Shown: positions 16,549-53,105 of the stretch, piece by piece | Position numbering within the stretch: the first letter of the stretch is position 1 | How the letters are laid out: each line of letters begins with the position of its first letter | NCBI GenBank assembly: GCA_043771985.1 | Contig: JAYVGQ010000100.1 | Span: 19,700-83,699, forward strand | Reading direction: 5' to 3' | From: Sphingomonadales bacterium | GTDB taxonomy: Bacteria; Pseudomonadota; Alphaproteobacteria; Sphingomonadales; Sphingomonadaceae | Length of the DNA: 64,000 nt | Translations under genes and position numbers: made by a program | Notes under the pieces: generated by a model | What the model was told of the DNA's origin: nothing | The model's database searches: none | What the model saw: only the letters and a program-made list of their open reading frames with translations

Positions 16549-16569
16549 ATCTGACCATCGCGCTTTTTC

Positions 16570-16716
16570 GTTTCATGCAAAGCACGCGAAGATTTTTAAG
16601 AGGTCGGCATAAGACTTTGCGCGAAGCGCATTCAGATGAACTGATGTTGAAAGTGCGCGCTCCGCGCGAGTTCCTAAGCTGACATCTTTGAAATCTTCGC
16701 GATCTTTGCGTGAAAC
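16570..16716. repeat. REP/MITE-like element with 26-bp inverted ends
   Basis: GTTTCATGCAAAGCACGCGAAGATTT at 16570-16595 vs the inverted copy at 16691-16716 (23/26). Confidence 0.8.
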
Positions 16717-16809
16717 TAATTTCGAATCATCACAGCCTAGTGCAACGCCAATTGTGCAGCGCGCCCCCTCCCGCTAAAGGCGCGATGAAATCTGACACAA
16801 GGACACCCC

Positions 16810-36183: not shown

Positions 36184-36996
36184 AATAGAACATCCGATTC
36201 GATTTTGCCGTCGCTTGCGCTGCCCGATGCAGGCTGGGGCCATGCGTTGGCTGCGCTTGGGAAGGCAAAGGCGGAGCAGCGGTCGCTATCGGATATTCTT
36301 AGCGGCTTGCCCATTAATGCTTGTCACGAGATTCTGGGCAAAGATAAAGGCGATGCCGCCAGCCTGTTTGGTTTTGGGGCAATGCTGGCGGCGATGTTGT
36401 CCACAAAACGACCCGATGCGCCCTGTTTCTTTGTACGGTCGCTGCGCCGCCGTGGCGGGCAGCTGTATCCGCCGGGACTGACCGAATTGGGGCTCGACCC
36501 TGATCGCTGTTTCAGCGTGCATACCCCCGATCTACTCGCCGCATTGAAAGCAACAGCGGACATCGCACGCAGCGGCGCAGCAGGGGCGGTGCTGGTGGAG
36601 ATAGAGGGCAATCCCCGCTTACTCGACCTGACCGCAAGCAGGCGGCTGGCACTGTCTGCGGAAAAATCTGGAACAGCGGTTTTGCTGTTACGCATGGGTG
36701 CGCGCGAAGCGCCGAGTGCTGCATATAGCCGGTGGCAGGTGGCCTCTGCACCCTCAACACCTTTGCTCGCCGACGCACCGGGCGGGCCAACCTTTGACAT
36801 CACTATGCTGCGTCACCGCCGGTTAGCTTCGGGGCAATCGGCGCAGCTGATCTGGAACCTGAACGAGCAAAAATTCGATGAGCAATTTGCAACCCAATCC
36901 CCGCAAAGCGATAGTGCAGGAAAGACGACATTTGGCCGTCTATTTTCCCTGGCTGCCCGCAGAGCGACTGATCCGCATACGCGCCGCGCCGCCTGA
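36178..36996 (+). CDS. imuA: Mutasome accessory protein ImuA (RecA-like)
   Basis: ACHEIL, LYPPGLTELGLDP, LTASRRLALSAE, RWQVASAPS; first gene of the imuABC cassette; start codon uncertain. Confidence 0.9.
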   Translation: MNNRTSDSILPSLALPDAGWGHALAALGKAKAEQRSLSDILSGLPINACHEILGKDKGDAASLFGFGAMLAAMLSTKRPDAPCFFVRSLRRRGGQLYPPGLTELGLDPDRCFSVHTPDLLAALKATADIARSGAAGAVLVEIEGNPRLLDLTASRRLALSAEKSGTAVLLLRMGAREAPSAAYSRWQVASAPSTPLLADAPGGPTFDITMLRHRRLASGQSAQLIWNLNEQKFDEQFATQSPQSDSAGKTTFGRLFSLAARRATDPHTRRAA

Positions 36997-38701
36997 CACA
37001 GCGTTTGCGCTGGTTGAAAAGCAAAAGGGTGCGATGCGGCTGGTCGCAGTGTCGCAACCTGCGCATTTGATGGGGCTTAGCAGCGGACTGGCGCTTGCCG
37101 ATGCCCGTGCGCGGGTACCAGAGCTTTTGGCATTTGATTATGACCGCGTGGCAGATGATGCGTTGCTGGAACGATTGGCCGAGGCTTGCCTGCGTTATAC
37201 GCCCAAAGTGATGCTGGATCGCCCAAAGGGCCTATTGCTTGATATTACGGGGTGCTGTCACCTCTTCAGCAAACCCCAACCCGTCAGGGGAGGGGTGGGG
37301 GCTGTAAGTTTGGCACAGTCCTCGCCAACAAGCCCCACCCCCAACCCGCCGACCAAAGCAAACGTCCGAGGGACGTTTGCGGAAGGCTCTGAAGCGGAGG
37401 GGCTTTTAGCCGCCGACCTTCAACACCGCCTGACCAGCGGCGGCTACACCGCGACTTTTGCTTTCTCCGCCTCGTCCGATGCGGCGATGGCGCTGGCGAT
37501 CTATGGCCTTGATGAGGGGCAGGTGGCGCAGCTGCCGGTATCTGCGTTGCGCTGTGATCCCGCAGTCCACCATGCGCTGCGCCGTGCCGGGCTAAACCGT
37601 ATTCGTGACCTTGCCAGTCGCCCGCGCACAGTACTCGCCTCGCGCTTTGGCGAAAAGGTCACGCATCAGCTGGCCCGGTTGCTGAGCGAAATCGACAGCC
37701 CCATCATTCCGCGCCGGTCACGTCCCGAAATCCTGTGCGAAGTGCGGTTTGCCGAACCGATTGGTCACACCGACAGTGTGCGTGATGCGATGGCCGGGCT
37801 GGCGGTGGATGCCATTCGCCAATTAGGCGAACGCGGCGAAGGCGCACGGGCATTGGAGGTTGTGCTTTATCGTTGCGACGGGATGATATCGCGGCTGGGC
37901 ATAGAGACTGCCGCGCCGACTCGCGATGTCGCACTGATTATGCGGTTGTTTGCCGAACGGATTGATGCGCTGCGCGATCCGCTCGACCCCGGCTTTGGCT
38001 ATGACCAAATTACGCTCCATATCCGCGCTGCCGAGCCGCTGAATGCCGACCAAAGCGATTTTGAAAGCAGCACCGCCAAAGCGCGCGAAGAACTGTCCGC
38101 GTTGCTTGCACGGCTGGCAACGCGGCTGGGGCCAGAATGCGTAACCCGTTGGCAGATGCTCGACAGCCATGTGCCAGAGGGGGTTTTTATCGATGGGGCG
38201 GCGGCTACCATCTCAATCCAAAACTGCGTCACCCCCGCAAAGGCAGGGAACCATCGCCTGATGATGAAATTTAGAATGCCGGTGATGGATTGTGCAAGCA
38301 CGCCGTTGGCTCCCCGCCTTCAGCCTTTGGCTGAAGTTTATCCTGAGCGCCCGCCCTGCGGGCAGTCGAAGGGCGGCAATGACGAAAAGAAGGAGGGATT
38401 GGCCCCTACCCGCCCTCTCCTGCTCCTCGACCCACCCGAAGCAGTTGACGCCATTGCCGAAGTCCCCGACGGCCCGCCTTACCGCTTTCGCTGGCGTGGG
38501 ACGCAGCACCGCGTCGCGCAGCACGAAGGGCCAGAACGAATCGTTATGCCTTGGTGGGACGGACGGCGAAAAGAAGCTCGGCTGACACGCGATTATTACC
38601 GAGTCGAGGACGATACTGGCCACCGATTCTGGCTATTTCGCCACGGACTGTACGAGGAAAAATCCGACCCCGATTGGTATGTGCATGGGTTGTTCGCATA
38701 A
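36878..38701 (+). CDS. imuB: Y-family polymerase-like ImuB, carrying two repeat-derived insertions
   Basis: LALADARARVPEL, LLDITGCCHLF, RFAEPI, AEVPDGPPYRFRWRG, GPERI, RDYYRVED, WYVHGLFA. Confidence 0.92.
   Translation: MSNLQPNPRKAIVQERRHLAVYFPWLPAERLIRIRAAPPDTAFALVEKQKGAMRLVAVSQPAHLMGLSSGLALADARARVPELLAFDYDRVADDALLERLAEACLRYTPKVMLDRPKGLLLDITGCCHLFSKPQPVRGGVGAVSLAQSSPTSPTPNPPTKANVRGTFAEGSEAEGLLAADLQHRLTSGGYTATFAFSASSDAAMALAIYGLDEGQVAQLPVSALRCDPAVHHALRRAGLNRIRDLASRPRTVLASRFGEKVTHQLARLLSEIDSPIIPRRSRPEILCEVRFAEPIGHTDSVRDAMAGLAVDAIRQLGERGEGARALEVVLYRCDGMISRLGIETAAPTRDVALIMRLFAERIDALRDPLDPGFGYDQITLHIRAAEPLNADQSDFESSTAKAREELSALLARLATRLGPECVTRWQMLDSHVPEGVFIDGAAATISIQNCVTPAKAGNHRLMMKFRMPVMDCASTPLAPRLQPLAEVYPERPPCGQSKGGNDEKKEGLAPTRPLLLLDPPEAVDAIAEVPDGPPYRFRWRGTQHRVAQHEGPERIVMPWWDGRRKEARLTRDYYRVEDDTGHRFWLFRHGLYEEKSDPDWYVHGLFA
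37270..37405. repeat. REP-like element inside the imuB coding sequence (insertion 1)
   Basis: GGGGAGGGGTGGGGGCT / AGCCCCACCCCCAACCC inverted arms plus a nested perfect hairpin GCAAACGTCC-GAG-GGACGTTTGC (37358-37380). Confidence 0.75.
38227..38384. repeat. REP/RPE-like element inside the imuB coding sequence (insertion 2) with nested 51-bp insert
   Basis: CGTCACCCCCGCAAAGGCAGGGAACCA left arm; right arm TGGCTCCCCGCCTTC...GCGGCAATGACG split by 38322-38372; same family as 53020-53105. Confidence 0.85.
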
Positions 38702-38705
38702 TAAT

Positions 38706-38884
38706 TTCTCTCCCCCTGCGGGAGAGAATAGACTTGGCTTGGCGATTTATCGCCTAGCTAGTCTTAGAGAGGGGGTGCGGACTTCTGGCTCGCACGGGCA
38801 CTGGATAACCGCACACCCTCTCCCAGCTTCGACTAGCAAGCAGGCTTGCAAGTCTGCGCAACCCTCTCCCGTAAAGGGAGAGGG
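38706..38884. repeat. REP-like element between imuB and dnaE2
   Basis: Terminal hairpins TTCTCTCCC-CCTGC-GGGAGAGAA and CCCTCTCCC-GTAAA-GGGAGAGGG with internal GAGAGGGGGTG / CACCCTCTC arms. Confidence 0.82.
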
Positions 38885-38887
38885 AAA

Positions 38888-41800
38888 TTGAGTTACGCCG
38901 AACCCATCGCTGCCACCAATTTCTCATTCCTATCCGGTGCATCACATCCGGGCGAGATGGTGGAGCACGCTATCGCTTTGGGCATTTCAGGCATTGGGAT
39001 CGCAGATAAAAACAGCGTTGCAGGCGTTGTCCGGGCGCACAGCGCGTGGAATACGGCGCAGAAAGAAGGACGCGCCGGTGACTTCAAATTGATCGTTGGC
39101 GCGCGGTTGGTCTTTGCCGATGGAACGCCCGATATTGTCGCCTATCCGATGACACGGCGCGGCTGGGGTCGGCTGACGCGGTTGTTATCACTGGGTAATT
39201 TGCGGACGAAAAAGGGGGATTGCATCCTCAGGTTTGGGGATCTGTTGGAATGGGCAGACGAGATGTGCCTTATAATCCTCCCTGACCAAGCTGAGGGTGA
39301 AATTTGGGAGCAGCTCAGAGCGAAGACAAATCACCTCTACATCGGCGCATCAATGCACCGATCCGGCGCGGACAAGCGCAACCTTGCTGCCCTCAAAGCG
39401 TTCTCCGCCCGAACCGGCATCCCCCTGATCGCCACCAACGATGCGTTGTACGCCACCGCCGCTGACCGTCCGTATCACGACATCCTCACCTGCATCCGCG
39501 AGAAGGTGACTATTCAAGAGGCAGGCACGCGCCTTGCCGCCAATGGTGAACGCTATTTGAAAAGCCCGGCTGAAATGGCCCGCCTGTTTGCCGATGCGCC
39601 GCAAGCCATCGCTGCGACCGCTGAACTGTTCAACGCCGTCAATTTCACGCTGGACGAACTCGCCTATGAATATCCGCACGAGCCGGTGCCGATGGGCTGG
39701 AGCCCGCAGGACTGGCTGGAGGATCTGACCCGCAGCACGCTATCTGAACGTTTTCCCGTCAAAGACTTCCCTGACGGCGCACCTGCGCGGTGGACTGAAT
39801 TGCTTGATGAAGAACTGGGCCTGATCGCACGGCTGAAATATGCGGCCTATTTCCTGACCGTGTACGACATCGTCAAATTCGCCCGCGCGCAAGAACCGCC
39901 GATATTATGCCAAGGCCGCGGCAGCGCGGCCAATTCGCTCGTGTGTTATTTGCTTGGCGTAACCTCGGTTGATCCCGTTACTAACAACCTGCTTTTTTCG
40001 CGCTTTCTGTCCGAAGAACGCGCCGAGCCGCCTGACATCGATGTCGATTTTGAACATGAGCGGCGCGAGGAGGTGATGCAATATATCTACAAACGCTATG
40101 GTCGCCACCGCGCCGGTATTGTCGCCACTGTCATCCATTATCGCCCGAAATCGACGCTACGGGAAGTTGGTAAGGCGCTTGGCTTTTCCGAAGATGTGAC
40201 GGCACGGCTTTCGGGCACCATCTGGGGCAGCTGGGGCGGTGAAGTTGAAGAGGCGCGCATCCGCGAGGCGGGGTTTGATCCAGGTAATCCCGAAATTCGC
40301 CGGATGCGCAAAGTCGTCGCCCGCATCCTGAATTTCCCGCGCCATTTGTCGCAGCATGTCGGCGGCTTTGTGCTGACCGAGGACCGGCTGGACGAGACTG
40401 TGCCGATATTGAACGGCGCGATGGACGACCGCACGTTCATCGAATGGGACAAGGATGATATCGATGCGCTGGGGCTGTTAAAAGTTGATGTGCTGTCGCT
40501 GGGGATGCTGACCTGCATCCGCAAAAGTTTGGAGATGGTGAAAGGATTAGGCGGGGCAGATCTCAACCTGCAATCCATCCCGACCGAAGACCCCGCCGTG
40601 TACGACATGCTGTGTACCGGCGATTCTATCGGGGTTTTTCAGGTCGAAAGCCGCGCCCAGATCAACATGTTGCCGCGCCTGCGCCCACGCCAGTTTTACG
40701 ACCTGGTTGTCCAAGTCGCGATCGTCCGCCCCGGCCCGATTGAAGGCGAAATGGTGCATCCCTATTTGCGGCGGCGGCAGGGGATGGAGCCGGTCGAATT
40801 CCCGTCACCCAATCCGCCGCACGACCCCGATGAATTGCACGATGTGCTAGGCCGGACGTTCGGTGTGCCGTTGTTTCAGGAACAAGCGATGAAGCTGGCC
40901 ATCGTTGCGGCTGAATTCACCCCTGATGAAGCAAACGGCTTGCGCCGCGCAATGGCGACGTTCCGCAACCTTGGCACCATCGACCAGTTTCGAGGCAAGA
41001 TGGTCGGGCGGATGGTGGAACGCGGCTATACCGAGGCGTTTGCTGCACGCTGTTTCAAACAGATCGAAGGGTTCGGCAGCTACGGCTTTCCCGAAAGCCA
41101 TGCGCAGGCCTTTGCCCATCTGGTCTATGCCTCAGCCTGGATCAAATGCCACCACCCCGCCGTGTTCGCCGCCGCTTTGCTCAATTCGCAACCGATGGGA
41201 TTCTATGCCCCTGCGCAGATCGTCCGCGATGCGCGCGACCACAATGTGCCCGTGCTGCCGATTGATGTGAATCAAAGTGGGTGGGATAATACCGTTGCGG
41301 GCACTCCGCCGACGCTTCGCCTTGGCCTGCGCCAGATTGATGGGTTTCGCGAGGATTGGGCCGAAAATATGGCTCGCGCGCGCCGTTTTGGCCCGTTCAC
41401 CGACATCGAAACCCTCGCAGGCCGCGCCGGACTTAACGATCAGGCGCTAAAACTGCTCGCTGATGCCGATGCGCTGCGTTCGTTGAACCTGGACCGGCGA
41501 CAAGGGCTGTGGGAAGTTCACCGCCGGCCTGGTCCGTCGCTGCCCCTGTTCGCCTTTGCCGAGGCTAAAGAGCTAGCCGCTGAACCCGATGCGCACCTGC
41601 CCGCAATGGCTGTGTCCGAACATGTCGCTGCCGATTACCAGACGCAGCGATTGTCGCTGAAAGGCCATCCGATGCAGTTCTTGCGCGAAAGCTTCACTCA
41701 CGAAAATATCCTGAGCTGTGCTGCGGTCAACGCCGCGAAAAACGGCGCACAGGTCAAGGCCGCAGGCGTGGTGTTGATGCGGCAGCGACCCGGAAAGGGC

Positions 41801-53019: not shown

Positions 53020-53105
53020 CGTCATTCCGGCGAAGGCGGGAATCCATCTCCCACTGATGAAATTTACAGCTCCGGTGTTGGACACCCGCCTTCGCGGGTG
53101 TGACG
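53020..53105. repeat. REP/RPE-like palindromic element
   Basis: 27-bp arms CGTCATTCCGGCGAAGGCGGGAATCCA / TGGACACCCGCCTTCGCGGGTGTGACG. Confidence 0.88.

What the first reader, a model, noticed from the sequence alone, without database searches (positions are those of the whole stretch)
38227..38384. Nested repeat-in-repeat in imuB, with both layers preserving the frame
Seen: this element shares arms and interior (TGATGAAATTTA..CCGGTG) with the intergenic copy at 53020-53105. Its right arm is split by a 51-bp insert (38322-38372, 17 codons) that carries its own hairpins (CTTCAGCC-TTT-GGCTGAAG; GCCCGC-CCT-GCGGGC). It encodes CVTPAKAG...GGND in the linker before the C-terminal domain. Inference: serial insertion, with REP arms as targets for a second element class and selection keeping ImuB open.
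Basis: seen in the sequence. Interest (0 to 1): 0.62.

Follow-up and report, generated by a model that had tools for sequence, protein, structure and literature searches.

The report
Three nested hairpin repeats inside ImuB
The linker of the mutagenesis protein ImuB grew by 54 codons through three stacked in-frame insertions of small hairpin repeats, and the innermost, a 51-base unit, lands at one exact spot (CTTC^GC) in the hairpin loops of other repeats, which gives a handle on how such repeats move.

Summary
The element at 38227-38384 is a CGTC-tagged REP head-to-head dimer (86 bp; 90 bp with its TT/AA flanks). It lies in frame in a disordered ImuB linker.

It carries two secondary inserts, not one:
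- the 51-nt unit at 38322-38372.

Orthologous imuB alleles from related Sphingorhabdus-like genomes show every stage: empty, REP only, REP+21, and REP+21+51. The 51 nt sit exactly between the loop CTTC and the stem GCGG, with no target duplication.

The same unit made a second in-frame nested insertion in sufC of this genome, in a different REP family; close alleles have that REP uninterrupted. The third genomic copy sits at CTTG^GCG in the end hairpin of a 147-bp MITE.

Across Sphingomonadaceae the unit lies in loops of several host repeat families. In 39 of 39 scored copies it is followed by GC, and its modal length is 51 nt. Both of its hairpins show compensatory changes.

All three layers are multiples of three, so the frame is kept automatically.

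The mobilising activity is unknown. In-frame CGTC REPs are known; a loop-targeting 51-nt module appears undescribed.

The parts
36878..38701 (+). imuB (607 aa), intact; carries two repeat-derived in-frame insertions
   Evidence: ORF list and translation. Pfam IMS_C, DUF6504 and IMS. Orthologue alignment. Homologues named ImuB by their sources.
38227..38253 (+). Layer 1, left REP of the CGTC-tagged head-to-head dimer: CGTC tag, 8-bp stem, AAAG loop, CCA tail; decayed, with one stem mismatch
   Evidence: The family consensus CGTC-ATTCCCGC-GAAG-GCGGGAAT occurs about 35 times in the genome.
38254..38289 (+). Layer 1, spacer of the dimer (..GATGAAATTTAGAATGCCGGTGATGGA)
   Evidence: Collinear with the intergenic copy 53020-53105 and with orthologous imuB alleles.
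38290..38310 (+). Layer 2: 21-nt module TTGTGCAAGCACGCCGTTGGC, two mini-hairpins (GTGC-AA-GCAC and GCC-GTT-GGC)
   Evidence: Absent from the REP-only alleles P0003, P0015 and P0016. Present in P0007 and P0011 with a compensatory stem change, GTCC-AA-GGAC. The same 21-mer sits in five other REPs of the genus, all of the CGTCAYSCTGAA-CTTGT-TTCAG family.
38311..38321 (+). Layer 1, right REP, 5' stem plus loop (TCCCCGC CTTC)
38322..38372 (+). Layer 3: 51-nt module. P1 hairpin (38318-38336, using the host CTTC), joiner TTTATCCTGAGCG, P2 hairpin (38350-38362), tail CAGTCGAAGG
   Evidence: Absent from all orthologous alleles, with exact boundaries CTTC|GCGG. Other copies at C126 and C32. Widespread in Sphingomonadaceae. 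Covariation in P1 and P2. The P1 + TTTAT stretch is flagged as terminator-like.
38373..38384 (+). Layer 1, right REP, 3' stem plus inverted tag (GCGGCAA TGACG)
53020..53105 (+). Uninterrupted intergenic copy of the layer-1 REP dimer (86 bp; 90 bp with TT/AA flanks)
   Evidence: I5, D4; about 20 further full or partial copies in the genome.

Best explanation
The 158-bp element is a three-layer nested repeat read through as 54 extra residues of a disordered ImuB linker.

Layer 1 is a CGTC-tagged REP head-to-head dimer (the NTS/SRM type). In this genome, copies of the same family flank a small Ssn-like GIY-YIG nuclease gene. The dimer entered the imuB linker before several Sphingorhabdus-like lineages diverged.

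Layer 2 is a 21-nt double mini-hairpin, added later at the base of the right REP.

Layer 3 is a 51-nt two-hairpin module, added last and only in this lineage. It lies exactly between the loop (CTTC) and the 3' stem (GC..) of the right REP.

The 51-mer belongs to a low-copy, non-autonomous module family of Sphingomonadaceae. It inserts without target duplication and in one orientation at CTT[C/G]^GC, at the loop-stem junction of small hairpins of unrelated repeat families.

I infer three things:
- Insertion happens on single-stranded DNA, where the host hairpin is extruded.
- The module's GAAG pairs with the host loop CTTC, so that host stem, P1 and P2 form a three-way junction.
- The unidentified catalyst is a structure- or site-specific ssDNA-acting enzyme rather than a classical TIR transposase.

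The frame survives because all three layers are 3n long (90, 21, 51), their used frames are open, and the site is a flexible linker.
For: SHOWN
- Stepwise states in orthologous alleles with exact junctions.
- A second independent in-situ insertion of the same 51-mer in sufC. It lies in a CCGTTCG-type REP, between TCTCGTCTTC and GCTCGAGG. Host-only alleles P0123 and P0126 are otherwise nearly identical in DNA.
- The third copy is at CTTG^GCG in the terminal hairpin of a 147-bp MITE whose uninterrupted ends read GCGCCCTTCGCGTGAAA.
- Family-wide, 39 of 39 scored copies are followed by GC, and 26 of 39 are 51 nt long. Hosts belong to at least three families in several genera.
- P1 and P2 covary: 93.6% of cells paired against 82% in shuffles, reached by 0 of 500 shuffles; 7 pairs change on both sides, including the two pairs that involve host-loop bases.
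- No target-site duplication is seen in any of the three comparisons.
- The three own copies are 95-100% identical over the core, while the host REP in imuB is decayed.
- The linker is disordered.
- Lengths and open frames.
- The Ssn-like gene at C2:802-1118 is flanked on both sides by layer-1 dimers.

FROM THE LITERATURE
- CGTC REPs occur in frame in genes, including DnaE2 and repair genes, and lack a dedicated transposase (PMC3733652).
- Ssn nucleases bind such hairpins as ssDNA, and the loop can be replaced or extended (PMC11893778).
Against: - No enzyme is linked to the module.
- The only Y1 (IS200/RAYT-like) gene in the genome is frameshifted and is absent from half of the module-bearing genomes.
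- No Y2 (IS91) transposase is present.
- No longer autonomous element with the same ends was found in this genome.
- Published Ssn enzymes cut upstream of the CGTC tag, not in the loop (PMC11893778).
- In some genomes all copies are one composite that spreads with its host. Independent loop insertions are therefore rarer than copies.
- P1 is variable and unlike P2, which does not fit IS200/IS605 ends.
- Linker states are discordant with the ImuB tree. Recombination between alleles therefore also shapes this site.
Confidence: 0.6

Rival explanations
1. The module is copied, not transposed. Hairpin loops of REPs are nicked or stall replication, for example through hairpin-processing nucleases. 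Repair or template switching then uses another repeat that already carries the module, with the REP stems or the CTTC/GC microhomology as anchors. No dedicated enzyme exists; the exact junction reflects where homology ends.
For: - There is no target duplication and the junction is always the same.
- Every copy is already flanked by CTT[C/G] and GC, so microhomology is always available.
- The composite spreads with its host in G410 and G416.
- The P1 loop is inverted (TTT against AAA) between the imuB and sufC copies, as template switching in palindromes would give.
- Linker alleles are recombinant relative to the gene tree.
- No cognate transposase was found.
Against: - The three own copies sit in three unrelated host families that share only CTT[C/G] and GC, 4 + 2 nt of homology.
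- No donor with matching stems exists in the genome.
- The same junction is kept across genera and host families.
Confidence: 0.25
2. The module is mainly a functional RNA or DNA signal, for example an intrinsic terminator (P1 + UUUAU) with an mRNA-stabilising or protein-binding hairpin. Its distribution reflects selection for that function; the imuB copy would attenuate read-through into dnaE2.
For: - P1 + TTTAT is picked up by the terminator scan on the sense strand.
- Both hairpins keep pairing through compensatory changes.
- In a crude neighbour analysis, 25 of 35 copies with a neighbouring ORF on the 5' side lie downstream of a co-directional ORF.
- REPs are often transcribed and lie downstream of genes (PMC3733652).
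Against: - There is no Rfam match.
- Two of the three own copies lie inside coding genes, one in each orientation, where a terminator would be harmful or meaningless.
- Function does not explain the exact CTTC^GC junction.
- The orientation analysis rests on naive ORF calls and is weak.
Confidence: 0.1
3. One-step insertion: a pre-assembled 162-bp composite (REP dimer + 21 + 51) landed in imuB once, and the shorter alleles are deletion derivatives or unrelated insertions.
For: Composites do propagate as units in some genomes.
Against: - No other copy of this composite exists in the genome.
- The REP-only and REP+21 alleles share the same site, orientation and spacer sequence, with exact 21- and 51-nt differences.
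- The 51-mer is near-identical to other copies while its host arms are decayed.
- sufC shows the same host-first order.
Confidence: 0.03

Closest known systems
CGTC-tagged REPs (families CGTC-1 to -4; Di Nocera, De Gregorio & Rocco 2013, PMC3733652), the same as the NTS/SRM repeats of Ssn GIY-YIG ssDNA nucleases (Chenal et al. 2025, PMC11893778)
   Same: Layer 1 has the CGTC tag, an 8-bp stem, a 4-nt GAAG loop, a CCA tail and head-to-head dimer organisation. It occurs in an alphaproteobacterium and in frame in a gene of the SOS mutagenesis cassette. The same family flanks a small GIY-YIG gene on both sides.
   Different: Neither paper, in the parts I read or searched, describes small modules that insert into the REP loop, nor stepwise nested growth. 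Ssn cuts upstream of the tag, not at the loop junction used here.
Rickettsia palindromic elements (RPE; Ogata et al. 2000, recalled from memory; RPE-4 and RPE-6 are classed as CGTC REPs in PMC3733652)
   Same: Palindromic repeats inserted in frame in conserved proteins, adding tolerated peptide segments.
   Different: The host clade differs. Here three element classes are stacked and all intermediate alleles are available.
Insertion sequences that target REPs (IS1397/ISKpn1; IS110-family ISPpu9/ISPpu10 with the separately mobile ssr9 module, PMC12288879)
   Same: REP/BIME hairpins serve as specific landing sites. A small non-coding module can move on its own into REPs.
   Different: Those elements are 0.2-2 kb and have a known transposase. 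IS110 elements also have a core dinucleotide repeated at both junctions. The 51-mer has no such repeat, no transposase and a different position in the REP.
IS200/IS605 elements, their miniature derivatives, and REPIN-RAYT systems
   Same: Insertion 3' of a short specific sequence without duplication, one orientation, hairpins near both ends, and a presumed ssDNA substrate.
   Different: P1 and P2 are unlike each other and P1 is sequence-variable. There is no GTAG tag. No intact Y1 gene correlates with the module, and no autonomous parent is known.
BIMEs (bacterial interspersed mosaic elements of enterobacteria and pseudomonads)
   Same: A mosaic combination of REPs with other short motifs.
   Different: BIMEs juxtapose motifs between REPs. 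Here the modules are nested inside REP hairpins at a fixed junction.

Membership tests
CGTC-tagged REP / Ssn-related motif (layer 1) | CGTC (or TGTC) tag at one end, followed by an 8-9-bp stem, a 4-5-nt loop and a short CCA-like tail | tested here: met
   38227-38253 reads CGTC-ACCCCCGC-AAAG-GCAGGGAA-CCA, with one stem mismatch. Orthologous alleles and the intergenic copy are perfect.
CGTC-tagged REP / Ssn-related motif (layer 1) | Multi-copy family, mostly as head-to-head dimers | tested here: met
   24 perfect CCCGC-CTTC-GCGGG hairpins and about 35 tagged hairpins of this type. About 100 tagged hairpins stand above a chance background of about 340. Dimers of 86-90 bp occur on many contigs.
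CGTC-tagged REP / Ssn-related motif (layer 1) | Small GIY-YIG (Ssn) gene flanked by the repeats | tested here: met
   C2:802-1118 encodes a 105-aa GIY-YIG protein (Pfam E = 8e-13), flanked by dimers at 699-788 and 1136-1226. A second GIY-YIG gene on C16 is flanked by another CGTC family.
CGTC-tagged REP / Ssn-related motif (layer 1) | Site-specific binding and cleavage of the repeat as ssDNA by the cognate Ssn | not testable with these tools
   This needs purified protein and oligonucleotides.
REPIN-RAYT system | GTAG-tagged REPs and a single-copy RAYT gene flanked by them | tested here: not met
   The tag is CGTC. The only Y1_Tnp gene (C91:46841-47520) is frameshifted in a T8 run, and no REPs were seen in about 900 nt on either side.
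IS200/IS605-derived miniature element (51-mer) | Insertion 3' of a fixed tetra- or pentanucleotide, no target duplication, fixed orientation | tested here: met
   CTT[C/G]^GC in 3 of 3 own copies with pre-insertion or uninterrupted references. 39 of 39 copies are followed by GC.
IS200/IS605-derived miniature element (51-mer) | Similar subterminal hairpins at both ends, and a parent IS with a Y1 transposase and the same ends | tested here: not met
   P1 is variable and unlike P2. No longer element with these ends is in the genome. Y1 genes are present in only 6 of 12 module-bearing or related genomes.
IS110-family modular element in REPs (ISPpu9/ssr9 type) | Core dinucleotide present at both junctions | tested here: not met
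   The junctions are CTTC|AGCC and GAAGG|GC, and the pre-insertion site is CTTC|GC. No shared core is possible.
IS91 / rolling-circle element | Y2 HUH transposase; insertion 3' of a CTTG/GTTC-like tetranucleotide | tested here: inconclusive
   The target resembles CTTG/GTTC. However, no Y2_Tnp gene is in this genome and only 2 of 12 genomes have one.
Classical MITE | Terminal inverted repeats and target-site duplication | tested here: not met
   The 51-mer has neither.
Known structured RNA families (ribozymes, riboswitches, sRNAs) | Match to an Rfam covariance model | tested here: not met
   Only one chance-level hit, at E = 7.9.

The most novel reading that the evidence does not exclude
The 51-mer may represent an undescribed class of minimal mobile element, a 'hyperparasite' of REPs. 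On this reading it recognises extruded hairpin loops by pairing its own GAAG with the loop CTTC. It is cut and joined at CTTC^GC by a host or REP-associated ssDNA enzyme, possibly an Ssn-type GIY-YIG nuclease. REPs resident in genes then act as landing pads through which protein linkers grow in 7-30-codon steps.
Probability: 0.22. Interest if true: 0.85.

Novelty: new variant of a known kind. Interest (0 to 1): 0.62.

Why it matters
How CGTC-type REPs and their relatives move is an open question, as is whether they still move at all (PMC3733652). The role of Ssn nucleases outside Neisseria is also open (PMC11893778).

Here two genes, imuB and sufC, each preserve the before and after states of the same 51-nt insertion, with base-exact junctions. 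A third copy shows the same junction in a third host family. That defines a concrete substrate (a hairpin loop CTTC^GC) and a concrete product that can be tested in vitro and in trap assays.

It also documents stepwise growth of a protein linker by stacked repeat modules. The order of events is readable from natural alleles. Repeats already inside genes appear to attract further insertions, which may explain why the same codon position carries different repeat families in close relatives.

Tried and rejected
- **Rfam scan of 37900-38700 at E up to 10:** only noise. I also compared the conserved joiners (CUGAGCG .. CAGUCGAAGG) by eye with the hammerhead core (CUGANGA .. GAAA). They do not fit.
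- **IS110-type recombination:** rejected, because no core dinucleotide can be shared by both junctions.
- **IS91-type transposition:** no Y2 transposase in the genome.
- **RAYT:** the single Y1 gene is frameshifted, has no REPs in about 900 nt on either side, and does not co-occur strictly with the module.
- **Search for an autonomous parent or other vector:** none in the genome. There were only 2 hits in viral contigs and 1 on a Sphingobium megaplasmid.
- **Orientation relative to neighbouring genes:** the naive ORF calls are too noisy in GC-rich DNA, so the result is inconclusive.
- **Folding of the whole 170-nt region as ssDNA:** not more stable than shuffles (z = -1.0), because the host arms are decayed. 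Only P1 and P2 are perfect.
- **Literature search by sequence strings:** found nothing relevant.
- **Read-level check of the assembly and of polymorphism:** Independent support comes instead from cluster representatives P0002 (imuB) and P0122 (sufC). They differ from the window's proteins elsewhere but carry the same inserts.
Full report
**1. What is there**

The ORF 36878-38701 (+) is a 607-aa ImuB. It has Pfam IMS_C, DUF6504 and IMS hits. An imuA-like ORF lies upstream and a 1091-aa DnaE2 lies downstream. Sources name its homologues ImuB, mostly from Sphingorhabdus and other Sphingomonadaceae.

The element CGTCA..TGACG occupies 38227-38384, which is 158 bp and residues 450-503. It parses into six consecutive parts:
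- left REP, 38227-38253;
- spacer, 38254-38289;
- a 21-nt insert, 38290-38310;
- 5' half of the right REP with its CTTC loop, 38311-38321;
- a 51-nt insert, 38322-38372;
- 3' half of the right REP, 38373-38384.

Without the two inserts it is 86 bp and collinear with the intergenic copy at 53020-53105. Family copies also conserve TT before CGTCA and AA after TGACG, so the unit is 90 bp.

**2. Layer 1 is a known kind of repeat**

Its architecture is a CGTC tag, an 8-bp stem, a GAAG loop, a CCA tail and a head-to-head dimer. This is the CGTC-tagged REP of Di Nocera et al. 2013 (PMC3733652). Those authors describe such REPs mainly in alphaproteobacteria. They report them in frame in genes, including DnaE2 and repair genes, and found no dedicated transposase.

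Chenal et al. 2025 (PMC11893778) showed that these repeats (NTS/SRM) are bound as ssDNA by small GIY-YIG nucleases (Ssn). The ssn genes are flanked by the repeats, the nuclease cuts upstream of the tag, and the hairpin loop is dispensable and can carry extensions.

- The genome has a 105-aa GIY-YIG gene at C2:802-1118, flanked on both sides by layer-1 dimers.
- A second GIY-YIG gene on C16 is flanked by another CGTC family.

The genome holds about 35 hairpins of the layer-1 type and roughly 100 CGTC-tagged hairpins above background.

**3. Serial insertion is shown by natural alleles**

The nearest species genome, G007 (ImuB 86% identical), lacks residues 443-503. Its linker is 162 bp shorter.

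A protein search recovered ImuB alleles with every intermediate state. Their contigs carry the same imuA-imuB-dnaE2 context. The linker, taken from DSHVP to RPLLLLD, has these lengths in the DNA alignment:

| Allele(s) | Linker length | Content |
|---|---|---|
| G007 | 108 nt | empty |
| P0003, P0015, P0016 | 198 nt | REP dimer only: ..GATGGA\|CCCCCGCCTTC\|GCGGGGGTGACG |
| P0007, P0011 | 216 nt | plus the 21-mer, offset by a 3-nt deletion elsewhere |
| this window | 270 nt | plus the 21-mer and the 51-mer |

The 51 nt lie exactly between CTTC and GCGG, and nothing is duplicated. The 21-mer differs between lineages by a compensatory pair (GTGC-AA-GCAC against GTCC-AA-GGAC).

The cluster representative P0002 differs from the window's protein elsewhere but carries the identical 54-residue insert. 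The structure is therefore not peculiar to one assembly.

**4. The 51-mer is a recurrent module with a fixed target**

This genome has two further copies.

(a) C126:3154-3210 lies in the right arm of a CCGTTCG..CGAACGG-type REP dimer. That dimer is itself in frame, on the other strand, in sufC (295 aa). Close sufC alleles P0123 and P0126 (279 and 278 aa) have the REP dimer uninterrupted. The DNA alignment places the 51 nt exactly between TCTCGTCTTC and GCTCGAGG, in otherwise nearly identical sequence.

(b) C32:26431-26481 lies in the right terminal hairpin of a 147-bp MITE family. Uninterrupted ends of that family read ..GCGCCCTTCGCGTGAAA, and the insertion is at CTTG^GCG.

So all three own copies sit at CTT[C/G]^GC, at the loop-stem junction of a small hairpin, in three unrelated repeat families.

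A scan of 401 genomes of the order found the core in 10 genomes of 5 genera, at 1-4 copies each. A collection-wide pattern scan found it in many Sphingomonadaceae genera. The contexts show hosts of the CGTC type, the CCGTTCG type and a GGCCCCGC-CTC-GCGGGGCC type, always in the same orientation relative to the host tag. Of 39 copies that start after CTT[C/G], all are followed by GC and 26 are exactly 51 nt long.

In G410 and G416 the host-plus-module composite is itself the repeated unit. Independent loop insertions are therefore fewer than copies.

**5. Anatomy of the module**

The order of parts is:
- P1, a 7-8-bp perfect hairpin with a 3-nt loop. Its outer four pairs use the host loop CTTC and the module's GAAG.
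- The joiner TTTATCCTGAGCG.
- P2, a GC-rich hairpin.
- The tail CAGTCGAAGG.

With the host stem this gives a three-way junction.

On 28 diverse copies, 93.6% of cells pair, against 82% in shuffles (reached by 0 of 500 shuffles). Seven pairs change on both sides, including the two that involve host-loop bases. Sliding the partners by 1-3 columns drops pairing to 20-39%.

P1-less versions also exist in loops. The P2 domain resembles an arm of the CCGTTCG-type REP (CCCTGAGCGAAGTCGAAGGGC) with an extra hairpin in its loop. The same CCTGAGCG-hairpin-CAGTCGAAGGGC core, prefixed by GTCAT, occurs in repeats of Chloroflexota and Eremiobacterota. The module thus looks like a derivative of the wider CGTC/SRM-like hairpin repertoire.

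**6. Frame and protein context**

The layers measure 90, 21 and 51 nt. Together they account for the +162 bp against G007.
- The 51-mer is open in 4 of 6 frames.
- The 21-mer is open in 6 of 6 frames.
- The REP dimer is open in one frame per strand (VIPAKAGIH..RLRGGD).

Because 51 is the modal length of the family, the genic copies are not special-length variants.

AlphaFold2, run with a 30-sequence alignment, gives pLDDT below 50 for residues 425-519. It gives the same for 135-168, the other repeat-derived insert. The insert ends 8 residues before the invariant RPLLLLD segment. Whether that segment is the clamp-binding motif is my guess and was not tested.

The ImuB tree shows that closely related alleles carry an empty linker, layer 1, or one of at least three other repeat families at the same place. 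It also shows that the 21-mer state is discordant with the gene tree. The site is a hot spot and is also shaped by recombination.

SufC shows the same pattern at one codon position.

**7. Mechanism**

Shown:
- exact insertion without duplication;
- one orientation;
- a CTT[C/G]^GC hairpin-loop target in unrelated hosts;
- recent activity in this lineage: three copies 95-100% identical, with host-only alleles in close relatives.

Inferred: action on extruded ssDNA hairpins by a site- or structure-specific activity.

Candidates tested:
- The Y1 transposase is frameshifted and not strictly co-occurring with the module.
- A Y2 transposase is absent.
- IS110-type recombination is excluded by the junctions.
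- Ssn-type nucleases are present, but the published ones cut elsewhere.

The main rival is templated copying after loop breakage, with microhomology CTTC/GC. It explains the missing duplication and the P1 loop flip. It has to work with only 4 + 2 nt of homology across host families.

A role as a terminator or RNA element is possible but does not explain the junction.

**8. Verdict**

- there is a third layer;
- there is a second nested in-frame case, in sufC;
- the target rule holds family-wide;
- there is a link to Ssn-associated repeats.

In-frame CGTC REPs are already known. The loop-targeting 51-nt module and the readable stepwise growth of a linker are, as far as the papers I could search show, undescribed.

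Noticed in passing
window 37268-37396 (ImuB residues about 131-172): A second repeat-derived in-frame insert lies in the polymerase-like domain of ImuB. It is shared with G007, but here it is 12 codons longer (TKANVRGTFAEG). More distant orthologues lack it, and its pLDDT is below 50. It may be another nested case.
   Followed up: partly
G000 contig C126:2534-3418 (minus strand), outside the window: sufC (295 aa) carries an in-frame CCGTTCG-type REP dimer plus the same 51-mer between VTF and DLL. A second sufC allele on C55:29256-29906 has a CGTC REP at the same codon. G015, G007 and G003 carry other repeats there. This is either a strain mixture in the assembly or a paralogue.
   Followed up: partly
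G000 contig C2:699-1226 and C16:950-1450, outside the window: Two small GIY-YIG (Ssn-like) genes are each flanked on both sides by their own CGTC-tagged REP family.
   Followed up: partly
G000 contig C91:46841-47520, outside the window: The only IS200/RAYT-like Y1 gene of the genome is split by a frameshift in a run of eight T. The N-terminal PGIPHHITQRGNRRERTFF is in another frame. No REPs were seen in about 900 nt on either side.
   Followed up: partly
imuB linker in relatives (proteins P0004-P0021; loci L182-L187): At least four different repeat families occupy the same linker position in closely related ImuB alleles. P0006 differs from P0009 and P0010 by a further 7-codon piece inside its repeat. 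Linker states disagree with the gene tree.
   Followed up: partly
window 16567-16719; G000 C32:26291-26490: A 147-bp MITE family has TTTCACGCGAAGGGCGCTAAGATTTTTAAG-type inverted ends and many copies in the genome. Its terminal hairpin is the host of the third 51-mer copy.
   Followed up: partly
window 38318-38336 versus C126:3154-3172: The P1 hairpins of the imuB and sufC copies have identical stems but complementary loops (TTT against AAA). This is a flip-flop pattern, as seen after hairpin-mediated template switching.
   Followed up: no
loci L051-L169: The core CCTGAGCG-hairpin-CAGTCGAAGGGC, prefixed by GTCAT, is repeated, sometimes in tandem, in Chloroflexota, Eremiobacterota and other phyla. 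This suggests a very widely shared hairpin motif.
   Followed up: no
window 38706-38890: Another palindromic repeat lies between imuB and dnaE2; terminator-like hairpins on the minus strand at 38706-38728 lie within it. Three repeats therefore lie within 1.6 kb of the cassette.
   Followed up: no
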